From: Naegleria gruberi
Taxonomy: Eukaryota
Assembly (NCBI GenBank): GCA_000004985.1
Contig: GG739055.1
Direction: 5' to 3' (one strand)
Length of the DNA: 8,721 nt
Shown: piece after piece, positions 5 through 7,494 of the stretch
How positions within the stretch are numbered: position 1 is the first letter of the stretch
How the letters are laid out: each line of letters begins with the position of its first letter
Notes under the pieces: model-generated
Told to the model about the DNA's origin: nothing
The model's database searches: none
What the model saw: only the letters and a program-made list of their open reading frames with translations
Program-made: the position numbers and the translations under genes

Positions 5-950
5 AGAGGTATCTTGACTTTGAAGTATCCAATTGAACACGGTATTGTTACCAATTGGGACGATATGGAAAAGATCTGGCATCACANCTTTCTACAATGA
101 ATTGAGAGTTGCTCCAGAAGAACATCCAGTCTTGTTGACTGAAGCTCCTTTGAATCCAAAGGCTAACAGAGAAAAGATGACTCAAATTATGTTTGAAACT
201 TTCTCAGTTCCAGCTATGTATGTTGCTATTCAAGCTGTCTTGTCCTTGTATGCTTCTGGTAGAACTACTGGTATCGTTTTGGACTCTGGTGATGGTGTCT
301 CCCACACTGTTCCAATTTATGAAGGTTATGCTTTGCCACACGCCATTTTGAGATTGGATTTGGCTGGTCGTGACTTGACTGATTACTTGATGAAGATTTT
401 GATGGAAAGAGGTTACTCATTCAACACTACTGCTGAAAGAGAAATCGTCAGAGATATCAAGGAAAAGCTCTGTTATATTGCTTTGGACTTTGAAGCTGAA
501 ATGAAGGTTGCTGCTGAATCATCATCTGTTGAAAAGTCATACGAATTGCCAGACGGTAATGTCATTACTGTTGGTAACGAAAGATTCAGATGTCCAGAAG
601 TTTTGTTCCAACCAAACTTCATTGGTATGGAAGCTGCTGGTGTTCATGAAACTACTTTCAACTCCATTGGTAAATGTGATATTGATATCAGAAAGGACTT
701 GTACGGTAACGTTGTCTTGTCTGGTGGTACTACTATGTTCGAAGGTATTGCTGAAAGAATGACCAAGGAATTGACTGCTATGGCTCCAGCCTCCATGAAG
801 ATTAAGGTTGTTGCTCCACCAGAAAGAAAGTACTCTGTCTGGATTGGTGGTTCCATCTTGGCTTCATTGTCCACTTTCCAACAAATGTGGATCACAAAGG
901 AAGAATATGAGGATGCCGGCCCAGGTATTGTCCACAGAAAGTGTTTCTAA
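5..950 (+). CDS. ACT1: Actin, 5'-truncated partial CDS (the window starts inside the gene). It reads ...[66 protein letters not shown]...[32 protein letters not shown], with stop TAA at 948-950. The single ambiguous base N at position 87 is an extra base that shifts the frame: codons are aligned to position 5 upstream of it and to position 90 downstream. The ORF-track call 33..950, starting at a TTG, is an artefact of this.
   Basis: Translation matches canonical actin nearly residue for residue across about 305 aa. Strong yeast-like codon bias (TTG Leu, AGA Arg, GGT Gly, CCA Pro, GCT Ala, AAG Lys), as expected for a highly expressed gene. No in-frame stops except at the N-induced shift. Confidence 0.95.
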
Positions 951-1090: not shown

Positions 1091-1115
1091 GACACTGAAG
1101 AACCTTTTCAGTGTT
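1091..1115. repeat. Perfect 8-bp-stem hairpin (ACACTGAA / TTCAGTGT) with a 7-nt loop GAACCTT. A degenerate inverted copy (ACACTGAA-AAGGTTC-TTTTCTGC) lies at 1227-1249.
   Basis: Direct inspection: 1092-1099 is the reverse complement of 1107-1114. The 8-mer ACACTGAA recurs at 1227-1234, followed by the reverse complement of the loop. Confidence 0.5.
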
Positions 1116-1386
1116 ATTGATAAATTAACCCAACTAATCAGTATTTGTTAGCAATCGCTCCAACTTTTAAAATAATAGAGGTCCACATTGTAATATTCCA
1201 CAACATTATAGAGTTATTTATCATTAACACTGAAAAGGTTCTTTTCTGCTTTTCTTTCTTCGTGTATCATTTTACTACAATTTTAAAGCAACTTGCCAAC
1301 ATTCTCCAAACCTAAAAGGAAATGGAACTCAGTTCTAAAATGAAATTAGTCAATTAGGTCTGTATTTTTCAAACATTGATGGGGTA

Positions 1387-1459
1387 TTTCAGGTGTTGTA
1401 GTGGTCTGCATGTGTTGAAGAGGTCTGACACGGCGGAGGTTCAATTCCTTCCCTGATAT
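1387..1459 (+). pseudogene. tRNA-like 73-nt element, possibly a degenerate tRNA gene or tRNA relic. The acceptor stem pairs 6 of 7 (TTTCAGG with CCTGATA). U8 is present. The D-loop is AGTGGTCT. The T-arm GGAGG-TTCAATT-CCTTC matches the B-box consensus GGTTCRANTCC. A T4 run follows 7 nt downstream (1466-1469). The anticodon stem cannot form canonically: the only stem available is 5 bp with a 10-nt loop.
   Basis: Stem-loops inspected by hand. Length and spacing fit standard tRNA numbering exactly. Positions 27-31 and 39-43 are non-complementary, so I call it a pseudogene or relic rather than a functional tRNA. Confidence 0.35.
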
Positions 1460-1559
1460 TTACTCTTTTGCTTAGCTCCTAAATTGCTTACTCATTATAG
1501 AAATAAGGCAAATCTCTGTGATTTCAACTCTTTTGTTTTTAAATAATGAGTACATAATT

Positions 1560-3551
1560 TTATTGTTGTTGTTTTGGAGGTTTATAACCAAAGGCACCCA
1601 TAATCTTCAACAAATTTTGATAAACGAGATCGTTTGGAACAGCACAACCACAAATCATATCACAGTGAATCTTTGTTTCCATTGTTCTTTCTTGAGCATA
1701 TCCAAGCCATCTCTTTGGTTCAACACCACATTCTTCACATGCCTTGATAATGTCCTCCTTTGTGGCATTAACAGTTTGTAAAACAATACCCCAAGGTGTG
1801 ATTTTCTTTTCAAGGGTGAGCTTTTTGAAAACTGGAACATCCTCTGGTTCATCCTTTCCAGCTATTTGTGCCCATTGCATTTGATCAGCAGCAGTCAACT
1901 TCATGCACTTGATAATAAGTGGTGGTTCTTGACCTAATGATTTACAAATAGCTCTAATAAATCTGATTGAGTTATTCCATGCACCTGCAGTTGAGTTCCA
2001 TCCAGAGGTATTGACAGTTGTTGTTCCTCTTCTAGGAACCATCATATCTTTTTGACAACATGTATCAACTCCAGCGTCCCATTGAGAACTCAAAAATTTT
2101 GCCATTTGAATTTGTAAAGTCAATAATTGAGCCAAGACAGATGTTTTGAGTTCATCATTAATTCTAGAAATTACATCTTCAACAGGATATAATGATGCAA
2201 TTAATTCCCACTTGGTTTGCAATTCTCTTCCTTTCAATAAATTCATCAAAAATTGAAGAGCATCATCAAGACCTCCTTGTTGTTGACTGTCAATGGTAAA
2301 TGCCTTTCTAACACTGAATTCACTAACAGCTAAAGAAGTGAATACAATTGAAGGAATGTCAAATTTAGAGTCAGTTGTCAAAGTTTCCTTGATATCATTG
2401 AAGAGGTAGTATTCTGGAGTAAAGAATCTAGTAGCAAGACCGCTCTTATCAATCTTGGTTGAAATTGAAGCAACAAATGGATTGAATACATTTTGTAATC
2501 TTCCTCTCAATTTTCCTGCTTGTTCTACGGCCTTGTTATATTTCTTAAAGTGCCACAAACTCTTGTGTAATTGTTCTTTTCTCTCCTTATGGGTAAGAGT
2601 CTTGTAAACAGCAGTTAAGGTATTCTTTCTTTCTGGATAACCACCCTTTCTGTTACGATTCTTGAACTTGACAAATGATTCTTGTCCAATTCCACATAAT
2701 TTTTCCAATCTCTCCAACAAGATGTAATATTCTGTAATTGTTTTCATATCTTGAGTTGGATCAAGAGGTGGTTGTTCAGCTTCAGCCAAAATTTTGTTAA
2801 TCACATCAAATTTGATTGCTGGTAATGGAATTGTTGGTTTGAATGATTCTTTCATGTAAGAGGCTTGTGTTTGAGGTGTTTCGGTAACACCTGATTCAAT
2901 GAAATTATTGAGTGATTCCATTCCACTTCCATTCATAGCTTTCCAGCATAGTAATGACTTGATCTTTTGAATAAGTTGACCTCTAGCAATAATGAGTGCA
3001 GAATATTCTTCATCTTGACATTCTTCCATTTTCTTTTCAATCCAAGTCAACCATTTGAATAACATGAAGGCAGCATTTTGAGGCATATATCTACCTTGAA
3101 CAATCATTCCAGGAATGTGCTTGAAATAAATGTCAGAAATTTCCTTTTCTAAACGACTAAGTTTCTCTTGTTTGGCTTTGTCCATAAAATCAAACAAATC
3201 TGTAGGGCTCATTTTCAAAAACTTTTCTTTCAATTTCAAATCACTAGGATTCTTTATGGTCTTGGTTGAAAAGGTATAATAGTCAGAACATCCCAATTTG
3301 TCTTCAACATTATCGAAAAAGACCATCAAATGGTAATATGATGGAAATCCTTGATATTCTTGTTTAAAAGGATTATAGGAACTATGATTTTTATAGTAAT
3401 CATAACTAGGACGATATTGTTCACTTCCTACAATTTTGGTAGATTCGGACCAAAATTTTCTACATTCCCTAACTTCTTTGTCAAGATAAGGAACAACTTC
3501 AAGAGGAATGACTTTAATTTCTTCAGTTTTTTGTTGTTGATTGTTGCTCAT
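1560..3551 (-). CDS. Hypothetical conserved protein of 663 aa. The N-terminus is MSNNQQQK. The C-terminal region has a Cys/His cluster (C-x2-C-x20-H-C-x3-C-x-C), the motif DAGVDTCCQ, and a polyQ tail. No family assigned.
   Basis: Uninterrupted 1992-nt ORF with balanced amino-acid composition and yeast-like codon use. ATG at 3549-3551 sits about 55-110 nt downstream of A-tracts (minus sense) at 3607-3620 and 3655-3661. No P-loop, kinase, RING or HKD motifs recognised. Confidence 0.85.
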   Translation of the reverse strand: MSNNQQQKTEEIKVIPLEVVPYLDKEVRECRKFWSESTKIVGSEQYRPSYDYYKNHSSYNPFKQEYQGFPSYYHLMVFFDNVEDKLGCSDYYTFSTKTIKNPSDLKLKEKFLKMSPTDLFDFMDKAKQEKLSRLEKEISDIYFKHIPGMIVQGRYMPQNAAFMLFKWLTWIEKKMEECQDEEYSALIIARGQLIQKIKSLLCWKAMNGSGMESLNNFIESGVTETPQTQASYMKESFKPTIPLPAIKFDVINKILAEAEQPPLDPTQDMKTITEYYILLERLEKLCGIGQESFVKFKNRNRKGGYPERKNTLTAVYKTLTHKERKEQLHKSLWHFKKYNKAVEQAGKLRGRLQNVFNPFVASISTKIDKSGLATRFFTPEYYLFNDIKETLTTDSKFDIPSIVFTSLAVSEFSVRKAFTIDSQQQGGLDDALQFLMNLLKGRELQTKWELIASLYPVEDVISRINDELKTSVLAQLLTLQIQMAKFLSSQWDAGVDTCCQKDMMVPRRGTTTVNTSGWNSTAGAWNNSIRFIRAICKSLGQEPPLIIKCMKLTAADQMQWAQIAGKDEPEDVPVFKKLTLEKKITPWGIVLQTVNATKEDIIKACEECGVEPKRWLGYAQERTMETKIHCDMICGCAVPNDLVYQNLLKIMGAFGYKPPKQQQ

Positions 3552-3705: not shown

Positions 3706-3888
3706 CTAGTTGAATGTTTCACTTGGCGAAAGTTCAATAACATGGTTTTCAACTTTATTAAAACTTAACCATATTTGAGATATTGAAATTATACAGATGA
3801 TGTTGGACAACATATATTGGCTCAATTTCTTTGCAAGATGAAAAATCTCAATTTGAAAAAGAGTGCTTGTATTGGATAGAGTAATTCC
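3706..3888 (-). CDS. Possible C-terminal coding fragment (61 codons ending in a stop at 3706) abutting the assembly gap. It could be the 3' end of the large ankyrin/acidic gene, or of another gene inside the gap.
   Basis: It is the only open frame in this AT-rich stretch. Its frame relative to the gene above cannot be known because the gap length is arbitrary. Confidence 0.3.
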   Translation of the reverse strand, partial: GITLSNTSTLFQIEIFHLAKKLSQYMLSNIICIISISQIWLSFNKVENHVIELSPSETFN

Positions 3889-5597
3889 NNNNNNNNNNNN
3901 NNNNNNNNNNNNNNNNNNNNNNNNNNNNNNNNNNNNNNNNNNNNNNNNNNNNNNNNNNNNNNNNNNNNNNNNNNNNNNNNNNNNNNNNNNNNNNNNNNNN
4001 NNNNNNNNNNNNNNNNNNNNNNNNNNNNNNNNNNNNNNNNNNNNNNNNNNNNNNNNNNNNNNNNNNNNNNNNNNNNNNNNNNNNNNNNNNNNNNNNNNNN
4101 NNNNNNNNNNNNNNNNNNNNNNNNNNNNNNNNNNNNNNNNNNNNNNNNNNNNNNNNNNNNNNNNNNNNNNNNNNNNNNNNNNNNNNNNNNNNNNNNNNNN
4201 NNNNNNNNNNNNNNNNNNNNNNNNNNNNNNNNNNNNNNNNNNNNNNNNNNNNNNNNNNNNNNNNNNNNNNNNNNNNNNNNNNNNNNNNNNNNNNNNNNNN
4301 NNNNNNNNNNNNNNNNNNNNNNNNNNNNNNNNNNNNNNNNNNNNNNNNNNNNNNNNNNNNNNNNNNNNNNNNNNNNNNNNNNNNNNNNNNNNNNNNNNNN
4401 NNNNNNNNNNNNNNNNNNNNNNNNNNNNNNNNNNNNNNNNNNNNNNNNNNNNNNNNNNNNNNNNNNNNNNNNNNNNNNNNNNNNNNNNNNNNNNNNNNNN
4501 NNNNNNNNNNNNNNNNNNNNNNNNNNNNNNNNNNNNNNNNNNNNNNNNNNNNNNNNNNNNNNNNNNNNNNNNNNNNNNNNNNNNNNNNNNNNNNNNNNNN
4601 NNNNNNNNNNNNNNNNNNNNNNNNNNNNNNNNNNNNNNNNNNNNNNNNNNNNNNNNNNNNNNNNNNNNNNNNNNNNNNNNNNNNNNNNNNNNNNNNNNNN
4701 NNNNNNNNNNNNNNNNNNNNNNNNNNNNNNNNNNNNNNNNNNNNNNNNNNNNNNNNNNNNNNNNNNNNNNNNNNNNNNNNNNNNNNNNNNNNNNNNNNNN
4801 NNNNNNNNNNNNNNNNNNNNNNNNNNNNNNNNNNNNNNNNNNNNNNNNNNNNNNNNNNNNNNNNNNNNNNNNNNNNNNNNNNNNNNNNNNNNNNNNNNNN
4901 NNNNNNNNNNNNNNNNNNNNNNNNNNNNNNNNNNNNNNNNNNNNNNNNNNNNNNNNNNNNNNNNNNNNNNNNNNNNNNNNNNNNNNNNNNNNNNNNNNNN
5001 NNNNNNNNNNNNNNNNNNNNNNNNNNNNNNNNNNNNNNNNNNNNNNNNNNNNNNNNNNNNNNNNNNNNNNNNNNNNNNNNNNNNNNNNNNNNNNNNNNNN
5101 NNNNNNNNNNNNNNNNNNNNNNNNNNNNNNNNNNNNNNNNNNNNNNNNNNNNNNNNNNNNNNNNNNNNNNNNNNNNNNNNNNNNNNNNNNNNNNNNNNNN
5201 NNNNNNNNNNNNNNNNNNNNNNNNNNNNNNNNNNNNNNNNNNNNNNNNNNNNNNNNNNNNNNNNNNNNNNNNNNNNNNNNNNNNNNNNNNNNNNNNNNNN
5301 NNNNNNNNNNNNNNNNNNNNNNNNNNNNNNNNNNNNNNNNNNNNNNNNNNNNNNNNNNNNNNNNNNNNNNNNNNNNNNNNNNNNNNNNNNNNNNNNNNNN
5401 NNNNNNNNNNNNNNNNNNNNNNNNNNNNNNNNNNNNNNNNNNNNNNNNNNNNNNNNNNNNNNNNNNNNNNNNNNNNNNNNNNNNNNNNNNNNNNNNNNNN
5501 NNNNNNNNNNNNNNNNNNNNNNNNNNNNNNNNNNNNNNNNNNNNNNNNNNNNNNNNNNNNNNNNNNNNNNNNNNNNNNNNNNNNNNNNNNNNNNNNN
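3889..5597. other. Assembly or scaffold gap of 1709 consecutive N.
   Basis: Run of N from 3889 to 5597. All X-containing ORFs across it (3863..5623 + and the central part of 3706..7494 -) are artefacts. Confidence 0.99.
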
Positions 5598-7494
5598 TGA
5601 CTAAATGTGTATCTTTAGAATAAATATTAAAACCATACTTTCCATCTTTCTGAATAGATTCATACTTGATAGCATATTCATCACCAAGAATAGTTTCTGA
5701 GAGAGGCCTTTCACTTTCTATCTGGTCAATAGATGAGGGATAGAATATAAAATCGTTATTTTCGCTAATTTCGATACCAATTTCACTTTCATCAGACCAA
5801 TCTGATTCATACCCATCGTCCTTTGGACTTTCTTCTTTGGTCTGATTTATATTGCTCTCCGATTGAATTCCAAACAATACTCTATCATTTGGATCATCAA
5901 ACTCAATTTCAAAGTCAGGATCATCTTCATCAGTGTCGTAATTAATTGACAACATGAGATTTTGTTCATTAATTTCAGTAACTATACTAGTAATGTTTTC
6001 AGAGCTAATCTCCTTCATTGAAAGGGAAGATAAATGATTCTTTAGAGCTTCTTCATCAATTGAACTTTCCTTAAAACATCCATTATATGCATTGAAAGCT
6101 ACCAATATAAAATTCTTCAAACACAAGTCCGTCATGAAAAATTTGCAAATTTCAGATGTTAAATTGAATAATTCAATGCAAAGTCTTTCTATTTCCTGTT
6201 GCATAATTGCCTGTGATGATGGACTAATAATGGTATCAAATCTATAACTTCCTAAAATGACTTTCGTCAATCCATTAAAAAATGCTTTGGGAATTATCAT
6301 TTCCTTTCTTTTCTTGAATTTAGGTTCATATTCATTACCTTCTCCAGCCTCGAATGCTCTCTTCTTGTTGTTTTCTTCTAGTCCTATACGTTTTCCAATA
6401 CGAACTGAAGGATAAACATCTATGAAATCATGTCTAGCTTGTACTATTTCTGTATCCTTCAATAGATCAGTAATGTTTTTGGATAATTCTTTTTCAGTTT
6501 CTACACACTGTACCCAAGGATCTTCACTGTCAACATTATGAATTTTAGATCTTATTGTTTTGATATCAATAAATTCCTCCTCTTCATCTTCATCACTAAC
6601 TTCTAACTCTTCATCAGAATCTGAAAGCCCTTCATCAATATAGTAATCTCTTTCTAACAACACATTCTTGTTGAGAGGGATTCCATTTGGACCCTTATCA
6701 ATTTGTAACTTTTCTAAATCGTCTTCCTCTGTTTCATCCAAATCAAAAATTTTCATGTTCGCCTCATCGAATATATTCTTATTCGATTCGACATGGTTTT
6801 CCAGATGTTCTTTGTAGGTTTCTTTCAATAGATTGTAAATCTTGTTGGAAGGCTCGTCTTTGGGTGCTGCAGTGTACATTCTGTATGCAAGAAGTGCGGG
6901 AGAGATTAATTGAGATTGAAATGGATTGGCTTTGTACTTTTCGATCAATAATTTCACAATCTCCACATTCTTTCCTCTAATTGCGTAATGTAAAATGTTT
7001 AGTCCAGCCCCATCTCTCTTGTAGCAAGCCCCGTATGAAGATACTATGTTATAGCTGGATGGCTCTCCTTCAAGAATTCCTGTTCTCAATAGAGTATCTA
7101 TTCTATTGTTTCCATTATCAGAACGATATTCCAGACACCACTTTACCAAGTCCAAATTTCCAATCCAAATAGCCAAGAATTGAAACGTAAATTCTGTTGA
7201 GAAAATTGGGATAAACTCTTCCCTTTCAAAATTCTTTCCTTTGGACAATTGATTCACGAATTTCATGCTTGTTACTTGTAATCCAATAGTATTTTCCAAA
7301 AAATCACATACCCAAACAGCAGCATTGATTTCACTATTTAAATATTTGATTTTCATACCTGAAAGGTATTGCACAATCCAGATCAAGTATTGTCTCGGAA
7401 TTAAACTACTATTGAAATAGTCCACTTCAATCCAATGACTTACCAATGGTAGGGACATGTACTCATCATTGGCTAAAAACTCTGCTATATTCAT
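5598..7494 (-). CDS. Large protein, N-terminal 632 aa, with its 3' end lost in the gap. An ankyrin-repeat region lies at about nt 6909-7104 (GAGLNILHYAIRGKNVEIVKLLIEKYKANP). Strongly acidic D/E tracts lie at about nt 6549-6624 (DEGLSDSDEELEVSDEDEEEEF) and nt 5860-5934 (DTDEDDPDFEIEFDDPND).
   Basis: Continuous ORF of 1897 nt from ATG 7492-7494 down to the gap edge. Carries the ankyrin consensus (LH.A...G..E.VK.LL). Low-complexity acidic linkers are typical of eukaryotic regulatory proteins. Confidence 0.85.

What the first reader, a model, noticed from the sequence alone, without database searches (positions are those of the whole stretch)
1387..1459. 73-nt tRNA-like element with intact Pol III B-box but broken anticodon arm in a convergent 3' intergenic region
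Acceptor stem (1387-1393 with 1452-1458, 6 of 7 pairs), U8, a D-loop AGTGGTCT and a textbook T-arm GGAGG-TTCAATT-CCTTC sit at exactly tRNA spacing (73 nt). A short T-run follows downstream. Positions 27-31 and 39-43 cannot pair. The only possible stem (1412-1416 with 1427-1431) encloses a 10-nt loop. So this is either a decayed tRNA gene, a tRNA-derived SINE-like relic, or a tRNA with an unusual insertion. In yeasts even degenerate B-box sites bind TFIIIC (ETC loci) and act as chromatin boundaries or transposon-insertion landmarks. Here it sits between the convergent actin gene and the 663-aa gene, antisense to the latter's 3' UTR.
Basis: seen in the sequence. Interest (0 to 1): 0.55.

Follow-up and report, generated by a model that had tools for sequence, protein, structure and literature searches.

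The report
Decayed tRNA gene relic in Naegleria
This is a real but broken tRNA-derived sequence in a Naegleria (amoeba, not yeast) genome, whose anticodon arm is replaced by a second, diverged copy of its own D-arm, so it is most likely an ordinary dead tRNA gene.

Summary
The 73-nt element at 1387-1459 (+) is there as described. Its tRNA likeness is well beyond chance: Rfam tRNA model 26.2 bits, E=0.0014 in a 251-nt scan. That is below the gathering score of 29, and genuine Naegleria tRNAs score 62-65 bits. ARAGORN calls it only at a relaxed threshold, which gives 1 false hit per 5 Mb of random DNA.

The window is Naegleria, almost certainly N. gruberi, not a yeast.

New here: the "broken anticodon arm" is not point-mutation decay. 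It is a diverged tandem copy of the D-arm/A-box segment. Positions 1393-1408 and 1412-1427 match at 14 of 16 bases with a period of 19. Only 40 of 20,000 shuffles reach this score, and none of 97 real tRNAs does.

When I replaced only 1413-1430 with a genuine Naegleria anticodon arm in silico, ARAGORN called a normal tRNA at its default threshold. So the acceptor stem, D-arm, T-arm/B-box and the T4 terminator at +7 are intact, and only the decoding domain is lost.

No counterpart exists at the related loci of N. fowleri or N. lovaniensis. The N. gruberi genome could not be searched for a parent gene or other copies.

Best reading: a rearranged tRNA pseudogene, possibly still bound or transcribed by the Pol III machinery. 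Interest is low.

The parts
1387..1459 (+). Whole tRNA-like element (73 nt), a rearranged tRNA gene relic
   Evidence: Rfam RF00005 full-length alignment, 26.2 bits, E=0.0014. ARAGORN reports it only at the relaxed threshold.
1387..1393 (+). Acceptor stem, 5' strand (TTTCAGG)
   Evidence: Pairs with 1452-1458, 6 of 7 Watson-Crick pairs. A1386-T1459 could add an eighth pair.
1394..1404 (+). A-box-like segment TGTTGTAGTGG (tRNA positions 8-19)
   Evidence: Read from the sequence. It matches 9 of 11 positions of the TRGCNNAGTGG consensus, which I cite from general knowledge. U8, A14, G18 and G19 are aligned by the covariance model.
1393..1408 (+). Repeat copy 1: GTGTTGTAGTGGTCTG (the genuine D-arm region)
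   Evidence: Self-alignment score 10 at period 19, reached by 40 of 20,000 dinucleotide shuffles. The pattern occurs only at these two places in the window.
1412..1427 (+). Repeat copy 2: GTGTTGAAGAGGTCTG, sitting where the anticodon arm should be
   Evidence: 14 of 16 bases identical to copy 1. None of 97 real tRNAs shows an internal repeat this strong; their maximum score is 7.
1412..1431 (+). Substitute hairpin: a 6-bp helix (1412-1417 with 1426-1431) and an 8-nt loop AAGAGGUC. No U33 and no recognisable anticodon.
   Evidence: Replacing 1413-1430 with a genuine Naegleria anticodon arm restores a default ARAGORN call.
1435..1451 (+). T-arm GGAGG-TTCAATT-CCTTC, which contains the B-box GGTTCAATTCC (1438-1448)
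   Evidence: It is the only B-box consensus match in the window, against 0.03 expected.
1452..1459 (+). Acceptor stem 3' strand (CCTGATA) plus discriminator T1459
1466..1469 (+). TTTT run 7 nt after the 3' end, a position typical of a Pol III terminator
   Evidence: Genuine N. lovaniensis and N. fowleri tRNA genes carry T4-T5 runs 2-5 nt after their 3' ends. The flank of the initiator tRNA-Met gene, tcttcTTTTgctt, closely resembles ttactcTTTTgctt here.

Best explanation
The element is a dead tRNA gene (a tDNA relic) in a Naegleria nuclear genome. An ordinary class I tRNA gene with a 4-nt variable loop lost its anticodon stem-loop. In that place there is now a diverged tandem copy of the neighbouring D-arm/A-box segment. 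This probably arose by slippage or template switching between the GTGTTG motifs at 1393 and 1412, or by a 19-nt duplication followed by a deletion. That step is inferred, not shown.

The acceptor stem, D-arm, elbow nucleotides, T-arm with B-box, and the T4 terminator all survive. If the Pol III factors still load, the product would be a tRNA-shaped RNA that cannot decode. Its predicted minimum-energy fold is a long central hairpin rather than a cloverleaf.

The most likely present role is none. Residual TFIIIC or Pol III occupancy is possible but untested.
For: - The tRNA model aligns end to end at 26.2 bits (E=0.0014), with all its loss in the anticodon arm. Real Naegleria tRNAs score 62.4-65.5 bits on the same model.
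- The relaxed ARAGORN hit is very unlikely by chance: 1 hit per 5 Mb of random DNA.
- Internal duplication: 14 of 16 bases at period 19, reached by 40 of 20,000 shuffles, and absent from 97 real tRNAs.
- Grafting a genuine anticodon arm into 1413-1430 alone makes default ARAGORN call a canonical tRNA in the same frame. The middle domain is therefore the only disqualifying defect.
- The 8-nt loop AAGAGGUC has no U33.
- The cloverleaf folds at -8.8 to -11.5 kcal/mol against an MFE of -18.6 for a non-cloverleaf. The z-score is -0.4.
- A T4 run sits where genuine Naegleria tDNAs have theirs.
- tRNAscan-SE found 924 tDNAs in N. gruberi, mostly dispersed, including 41 pseudogenes (PMC2888827 supplement 2). 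A stray relic in an 8.7-kb window is therefore unremarkable.
- There is no counterpart next to the 663-aa orthologues or the actin genes of N. fowleri or N. lovaniensis.
Against:
- The isotype is undetermined.
- The good preservation of both promoter boxes, the elbow and the terminator, next to a completely replaced anticodon arm, would also fit a retained non-decoding function.
- The near-exact conservation of total length (73 nt) after the rearrangement needs either two events or one neat replacement.
- The repeat statistic is post hoc.
- Absence in N. fowleri and N. lovaniensis says little. Synteny with actin is not kept, and the proteins are only 53% identical.
Confidence: 0.72

Rival explanations
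1. A retained, non-decoding Pol III element. The intact A-box and B-box recruit TFIIIC and TFIIIB. The site then acts as an ETC-like chromatin or transcription boundary between the two convergent genes, or it yields a stable tRNA-like small RNA (mascRNA-like in shape).
For: - The B-box matches the consensus perfectly and is unique in the window.
- The A-box-like segment is present twice.
- The elbow nucleotides and the acceptor/T minihelix are intact, and the rest of the body is tRNA-competent.
- A T4 terminator is present.
- Homologues of TFIIIB and of two TFIIIC subunits have been reported in N. gruberi (PMC3369914).
- The element lies between the two convergent genes, beyond their AATAAA signals (the minus-strand signal is read).
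Against: - There are no expression or occupancy data.
- No conservation is detectable in the two other Naegleria genomes.
- The predicted fold is not a cloverleaf and is no more stable than shuffled sequence (z = -0.4).
- The acceptor and D stems already carry U/U mismatches.
- ETC sites as described in yeast are usually bare B-boxes, not whole tRNA bodies (general knowledge).
Confidence: 0.12
2. A copy of a tRNA-derived repeat (SINE-like or another dispersed family) rather than a gene that decayed in place.
For: - N. gruberi has an unusually high tDNA count (924) for a 41-Mb genome.
- The double D-arm structure could be the signature of a family.
- A MITE-like 28-nt inverted repeat lies about 145 nt upstream, so mobile DNA may be present in this spacer.
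Against: - No flanking direct repeats, no A-rich or simple-repeat tail, and no tRNA-unrelated body. Only about 100 nt separate the element from the next gene.
- There is no second copy in the window or in about 250 kb of other Naegleria DNA.
- The terminator sits at the native tDNA position.
Confidence: 0.08
3. Chance resemblance: an AT-rich spacer that happens to contain a B-box-like hairpin and complementary ends.
For: - The score is below Rfam's gathering threshold, and default ARAGORN is silent.
- The fold energy is no better than shuffles.
- In a larger Rfam scan the hit was lost to the speed filters.
Against: - E=0.0014 already counts all 4227 families. For the tRNA family alone over this window that is about 1e-5 (my arithmetic).
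- The relaxed ARAGORN false-positive rate is 1 per 5 Mb.
- Acceptor stem, U8, A14, G18-G19, G15/C48, G53-T54-T55-C56, A58 and C61 all sit in register at canonical spacing.
- A terminator follows at the expected place.
- The graft test gives a default tRNA call.
Confidence: 0.05
4. A functional decoding tRNA of unusual shape. Either ARAGORN's 83-nt tRNA-His(GTG) with a 13-nt variable region (1377-1459), or a 73-nt tRNA with an 8-nt anticodon loop (quadruplet or frameshift type).
For: - ARAGORN at its 95% threshold draws the 83-nt His(GTG) fold.
- A single substitution, A1419C, lifts that fold over the default threshold.
- An 8-nt loop on a 5-6-bp stem is formally possible.
Against: - The 83-nt fold has +1.0 kcal/mol. 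Its acceptor stem has only 3 Watson-Crick pairs, its D-stem has 1, it has three nucleotides between the acceptor and D stems, T at position 37, and a variable region that cannot form a stem.
- The 8-nt loop has A at position 33 and no purine at position 37.
- The score of 26 bits compares with 62-65 bits for real Naegleria tRNAs.
- The loop sequence is simply a copy of the D-loop.
Confidence: 0.03

Closest known systems
tRNA pseudogenes as flagged by tRNAscan-SE (41 reported in N. gruberi, PMC2888827)
   Same: Significant but sub-threshold similarity to the tRNA model. The internal promoter and terminator are intact. One structural domain is destroyed, so the RNA cannot decode.
   Different: The defect is not scattered point decay or truncation. 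The anticodon arm is replaced, with total length kept, by a tandem copy of the D-arm. The parent gene is not identified.
ETC (extra TFIIIC) sites of budding and fission yeast
   Same: A consensus B-box sits outside a functional tRNA gene, in an intergenic spacer between Pol II genes.
   Different: The organism is different (Heterolobosea). Here a whole tRNA-like body with an A-box and a terminator is present, not an isolated B-box. TFIIIC occupancy is untested.
mascRNA / MALAT1-type tRNA-like structures
   Same: Cloverleaf-like acceptor/T minihelix with a non-functional anticodon domain, on the same strand as an upstream Pol II gene (actin).
   Different: It lies 437 nt beyond the actin stop and about 410 nt beyond an AATAAA at 970-975. 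It carries Pol III promoter boxes and a T-run. There is no evidence that it belongs to the actin transcript.
tRNA-derived SINE heads
   Same: A tRNA-related sequence with A and B boxes and a degenerate anticodon region.
   Different: No SINE body, tail or target-site duplication. Only a single copy is visible.

Membership tests
Functional tRNA gene (Rfam RF00005) | Reaches the family's curated gathering score | tested here: not met
   26.2 bits against a gathering score of 29. Genuine Naegleria tRNAs score 62.4-65.5 bits.
Functional tRNA gene (Rfam RF00005) | Anticodon arm: 5-bp stem, 7-nt loop with U33 and a purine at position 37 | tested here: not met
   The canonical register does not pair. 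The only helix encloses an 8-nt loop, AAGAGGUC, with A33. The segment is a copy of the D-arm.
Functional tRNA gene (Rfam RF00005) | Acceptor stem, D-arm with A14/G18/G19, and T-arm with GTTCRA loop at canonical spacing | tested here: met
   Acceptor 6 of 7 pairs, D-stem 3 of 4, T-stem 5 of 5. The conserved nucleotides are in register. The graft test gives a default ARAGORN call.
tRNA pseudogene / tDNA relic | Clear tRNA-model similarity together with loss of an element essential for decoding | tested here: met
tRNA pseudogene / tDNA relic | An identifiable intact parent or paralogous tRNA in the same genome | not testable with these tools
The metagenome pattern scan returned mostly tRNA-Cys(GCA) genes whose organisms I did not identify, and none was close to the element.
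ETC (extra TFIIIC) site | B-box consensus GGTTCRANTCC | tested here: met
   GGTTCAATTCC at 1438-1448, the only match in the window, against 0.03 expected.
ETC (extra TFIIIC) site | TFIIIC occupancy with little or no Pol III | not testable with these tools
   This needs ChIP data. Only the presence of TFIIIC-subunit homologues in N. gruberi is reported (PMC3369914).
tRNA-derived SINE | tRNA-unrelated body, 3' tail and flanking target-site duplication | tested here: not met
   No flanking direct repeats and no tail. The next gene starts about 100 nt downstream.
tRNA-derived SINE | Many dispersed copies in the genome | not testable with these tools
   No copy in the window or in about 250 kb of N. 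fowleri and N. lovaniensis DNA. The host genome itself could not be searched.
mascRNA-like 3'-end processing element | Lies at the 3' end of the upstream Pol II transcript | tested here: inconclusive
   Same strand as actin, but 437 nt past the stop, with an AATAAA at 970-975. An actin paralogue transcript contig (L007) ends 38 nt after its stop codon, so it says nothing about how far the transcript runs. No RNA data exist for this locus.

The most novel reading that the evidence does not exclude
The element is kept by selection as a non-decoding Pol III/TFIIIC module: a tRNA body with a doubled A-box/D-arm and an intact B-box and terminator. It would serve as a boundary or termination aid between the convergent actin and 663-aa genes, or yield a processed tRNA-shaped small RNA. 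That would be an ETC-like or mascRNA-like element in a heterolobosean, where none has been described.
Probability: 0.07. Interest if true: 0.45.

Novelty: new member of a known kind. Interest (0 to 1): 0.15.

Why it matters
It matters little as it stands. Dead tRNA genes are common, and N. gruberi is already reported to carry dozens.

There are two small points of value:
This is Naegleria, not yeast.
- It shows one way a tRNA gene can die. The anticodon arm is replaced by a copy of the adjacent D-arm while both Pol III promoter boxes and the terminator survive. A gene like this could still load Pol III factors.

If it proved to be occupied or expressed, it would be a first ETC-like site outside fungi and animals. 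Nothing here shows that.

Tried and rejected
1. Orthologous loci. I fetched the 663-aa homologues of N. fowleri (L001, L002), N. lovaniensis (L003) and an unnamed relative (L004-L006). None has a tRNA, a B-box match or similarity to the spacer, and actin is not the downstream neighbour there.

2. Nine actin loci of N. lovaniensis and N. fowleri (L008-L016). No tRNA lies downstream of actin. Only three true tRNAs were found, which I used as references.

3. The N. gruberi genome itself. Exact-protein look-ups for the 663-aa and 144-aa ORFs and for actins P0028 and P0040 returned nothing, or only a 1.2-kb transcript contig. A search for a parent gene or other copies was therefore impossible.

4. 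Metagenome pattern scan for tRNAs sharing the acceptor stem and T-loop. It gave 120 or more hits. ARAGORN typed 47 of the 121 extracted matches as tRNA-Cys(GCA) and the rest as mixed isotypes. None was close to the element, so the scan says nothing about the parent. The viral scan with the 3' half gave no hits.

5. Isotype assignment. The 4-nt variable loop CGGC, U1-A72, TG at positions 8-9 and the AGTGGT D-loop recall the Glu/Asp/Gln/His/Cys group. That rests on memory only and was not testable, so I left the isotype open.

6. ARAGORN's 83-nt His(GTG) fold. Rejected on its energy (+1.0 kcal/mol) and weak stems.

7. An 8-nt-loop quadruplet decoder. Rejected because there is no U33 or purine 37.

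8. A C/D-box snoRNA reading (TGATGG at 1377-1382, CTGA at 1453-1456). Rejected because there is no Rfam snoRNA hit over the element, and the would-be guide region is the self-paired T-arm.

9. An inversion of the anticodon segment. The reverse complement does not form a better anticodon arm (checked by hand).

10. Tandem Repeats Finder did not report the 19-nt repeat, because two copies score below its threshold. My own shuffle test was used instead.

11. An Rfam scan of 57 kb at the E-value threshold dropped the hit through its speed filters, so it could not serve as a background control.

Full report
**Observation.** The sequence at 1387-1459 (+) is TTTCAGGTGTTGTAGTGGTCTGCATGTGTTGAAGAGGTCTGACACGGCGGAGGTTCAATTCCTTCCCTGATAT.
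- The acceptor stem, 1387-1393 with 1452-1458, has 6 of 7 Watson-Crick pairs and one T/T mismatch.
- T8 is at 1394 and the D-loop AGTGGTCT is at 1400-1407.
- The D-stem has 3 of 4 pairs.
- The T-arm is GGAGG-TTCAATT-CCTTC at 1435-1451.
- A TTTT run lies at 1466-1469.

The canonical anticodon-stem register does not pair. It encloses an 8-nt loop, AAGAGGUC.

**Is it more than chance?**
- At Rfam gathering thresholds nothing in the window is reported, and ARAGORN with default settings finds no tRNA.
- A sensitive scan of 1300-1550 aligns the Rfam tRNA model end to end on exactly 1387-1459 (+). The score is 26.2 bits against a gathering score of 29, with E=0.0014 for 251 nt, both strands and 4227 families.
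- Three genuine Naegleria tRNAs score 62.4-65.5 bits on the same model.
- ARAGORN at its 95% threshold reports the locus. That setting gave one hit in 5 Mb of Markov-random DNA of Naegleria composition. In 248 kb of real Naegleria DNA it gave only the three true tRNAs and this element.
- The B-box consensus GGTTCRANTCC occurs once in the window, against 0.03 expected.

The resemblance to a tRNA is real, and the element is clearly sub-standard as a tRNA.

**Organism and context.**
- The partial ORF at 33-950 (+) is actin (Pfam) and is 100% identical to N. gruberi NAEGRDRAFT_55094.
- The 663-aa ORF at 1560-3551 (-) has no Pfam domain. Its only homologues are hypothetical proteins of N. fowleri and N. 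lovaniensis at 53% identity, plus one unnamed assembly hit.
- The window is therefore Naegleria, almost certainly N. gruberi, and not a yeast.
- AATAAA lies at 970-975, just after the actin stop. On the minus strand another AATAAA overlaps the stop codon of the 663-aa gene (read). By inference the element sits in the spacer between the two likely poly(A) sites and in neither mRNA.

**What the middle domain is.** The segment at the anticodon-arm position is a diverged tandem copy of the adjacent D-arm/A-box segment.
- 1393-1408 GTGTTGTAGTGGTCTG and 1412-1427 GTGTTGAAGAGGTCTG match at 14 of 16 bases with a period of 19.
- Only 40 of 20,000 dinucleotide-preserving shuffles of the 73-mer reach that self-alignment score.
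- The degenerate pattern occurs only at these two places in the window.
- None of 97 distinct real tRNAs has an internal repeat above score 7, against 10 here.
- Tandem Repeats Finder does not list it, because two short copies fall below its threshold.
- The statistic is post hoc, but it explains why the loop has no U33 and no anticodon context: it is a copy of the D-loop.

**Is the rest intact?** I replaced only 1413-1430 with the anticodon arm of a genuine N. lovaniensis tRNA-Arg or tRNA-Met. Default ARAGORN then called a canonical tRNA in the covariance model's frame. The acceptor stem, D-arm, 4-nt variable loop (CGGC) and T-arm are therefore tRNA-competent, and the middle domain is the sole disqualifier.

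Genuine Naegleria tRNA genes are followed by T4-T5 runs 2-5 nt after their 3' ends. The flank of the initiator tRNA-Met gene, tcttcTTTTgctt, resembles ttactcTTTTgctt here. That supports an in-place tRNA gene with its Pol III terminator.

**Competing folds.**
- ARAGORN's relaxed call is a different, 83-nt fold: 1377-1459, labelled His(GTG), with a 13-nt variable region. A single substitution, A1419C, would lift it over the default threshold.
- That fold evaluates to +1.0 kcal/mol. It has a weak acceptor stem (3 Watson-Crick pairs), a D-stem with one Watson-Crick pair, and T at position 37. I reject it.
- The covariance-model cloverleaf evaluates to -8.8 kcal/mol with the 8-nt loop, or -11.5 with the 10-nt loop.
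- The MFE of the 73-mer is -18.6 kcal/mol, a long central hairpin rather than a cloverleaf. It is no more stable than shuffled sequence (z = -0.4).

**Comparative evidence.**
- Downstream of the 663-aa orthologues in N. fowleri (L002) and N. lovaniensis (L003) there is no tRNA, no B-box match and no similarity to the spacer. The neighbouring gene there is not actin.
- Nine actin loci of those species have no tRNA downstream of actin.
- This shows the element is not an ancient conserved feature. These species are too distant for a fair test of conservation.
- A metagenome pattern scan returned mostly tRNA-Cys(GCA) genes and nothing close to the element. A viral scan returned nothing.

**Background from the literature.**
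- tRNAscan-SE found 924 tDNAs in the 41-Mb N. gruberi genome. Of these, 84% were not clustered and 41 were flagged as pseudogenes (PMC2888827). That is about one tDNA per 44 kb, so a relic in an 8.7-kb window is unremarkable.
- Homologues of TFIIIB and of two TFIIIC subunits are reported in N. gruberi (PMC3369914). Residual factor binding is therefore conceivable but untested.

**Conclusion.** The best explanation is a rearranged tRNA pseudogene: a class I tRNA gene whose anticodon arm was replaced by a copy of its own D-arm. The likely route is slippage or template switching between the GTGTTG motifs, or a duplication followed by a deletion. That step is inferred. Both promoter boxes and the terminator were left in place.

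Confidence in this reading and its rivals:

| Explanation | Confidence |
|---|---|
| Rearranged tRNA pseudogene | 0.72 |
| Retained non-decoding Pol III/TFIIIC element | 0.12 |
| Member of a tRNA-derived repeat family | 0.08 |
| Chance resemblance | 0.05 |
| Unusual decoding tRNA | 0.03 |

Its "decayed tRNA gene" option is supported, and its yeast/ETC framing is not. This is a new member of a known kind, and its interest is low.

Noticed in passing
window 1098-1125 and 1216-1243: A 28-nt inverted repeat, 27 of 28 complementary, with arms 90 nt apart, in the spacer downstream of actin. The region folds into a long hairpin of -43.6 kcal/mol (z = -5.6, 0 of 200 shuffles as stable). It could be a MITE-like element or a hairpin-RNA locus. 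No copy was found in the fetched loci.
   Followed up: partly
window 1454-1473 and 1519-1538: A 20-nt direct repeat, 16 of 20 identical. The 3' end of the tRNA-like element plus its TTTT trailer (TGATATTTACTCTTTTGCTT) recurs 65 nt downstream as TGATTTCAACTCTTTTGTTT. It may be chance or a trace of a second tDNA end.
   Followed up: no
window 3889-5597 and position 87: A run of 1709 N (an assembly gap or mask) lies inside a long minus-strand ORF with ankyrin repeats (3706-7494). A single N lies in the actin ORF.
   Followed up: no
window 624-707 (+): A sub-threshold Rfam hit to mir-3533 (33.6 bits, gathering score 104) lies inside the actin coding sequence. It is almost certainly an artefact of that family's similarity to actin exons.
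   Followed up: no
L010 7987-8105 (-) and 8339-8410 (-): In N. lovaniensis a 5S rRNA gene (104.9 bits) and an initiator-type tRNA-Met gene lie 230 nt apart, about 1.6-2 kb upstream of an actin gene. Pol III genes do therefore occur next to actin paralogues in the genus.
   Followed up: no
window 1560-3551 (-): The 663-aa ORF has no Pfam domain and only three homologues in 5.8 billion proteins, two named Naegleria and one unnamed. It looks like a lineage-restricted protein of unknown function.
   Followed up: no
window 1386 and 1459: A1386 can pair with T1459, giving a possible 8-bp acceptor stem with T1460 as discriminator. ARAGORN drew this on the grafted constructs.
   Followed up: no
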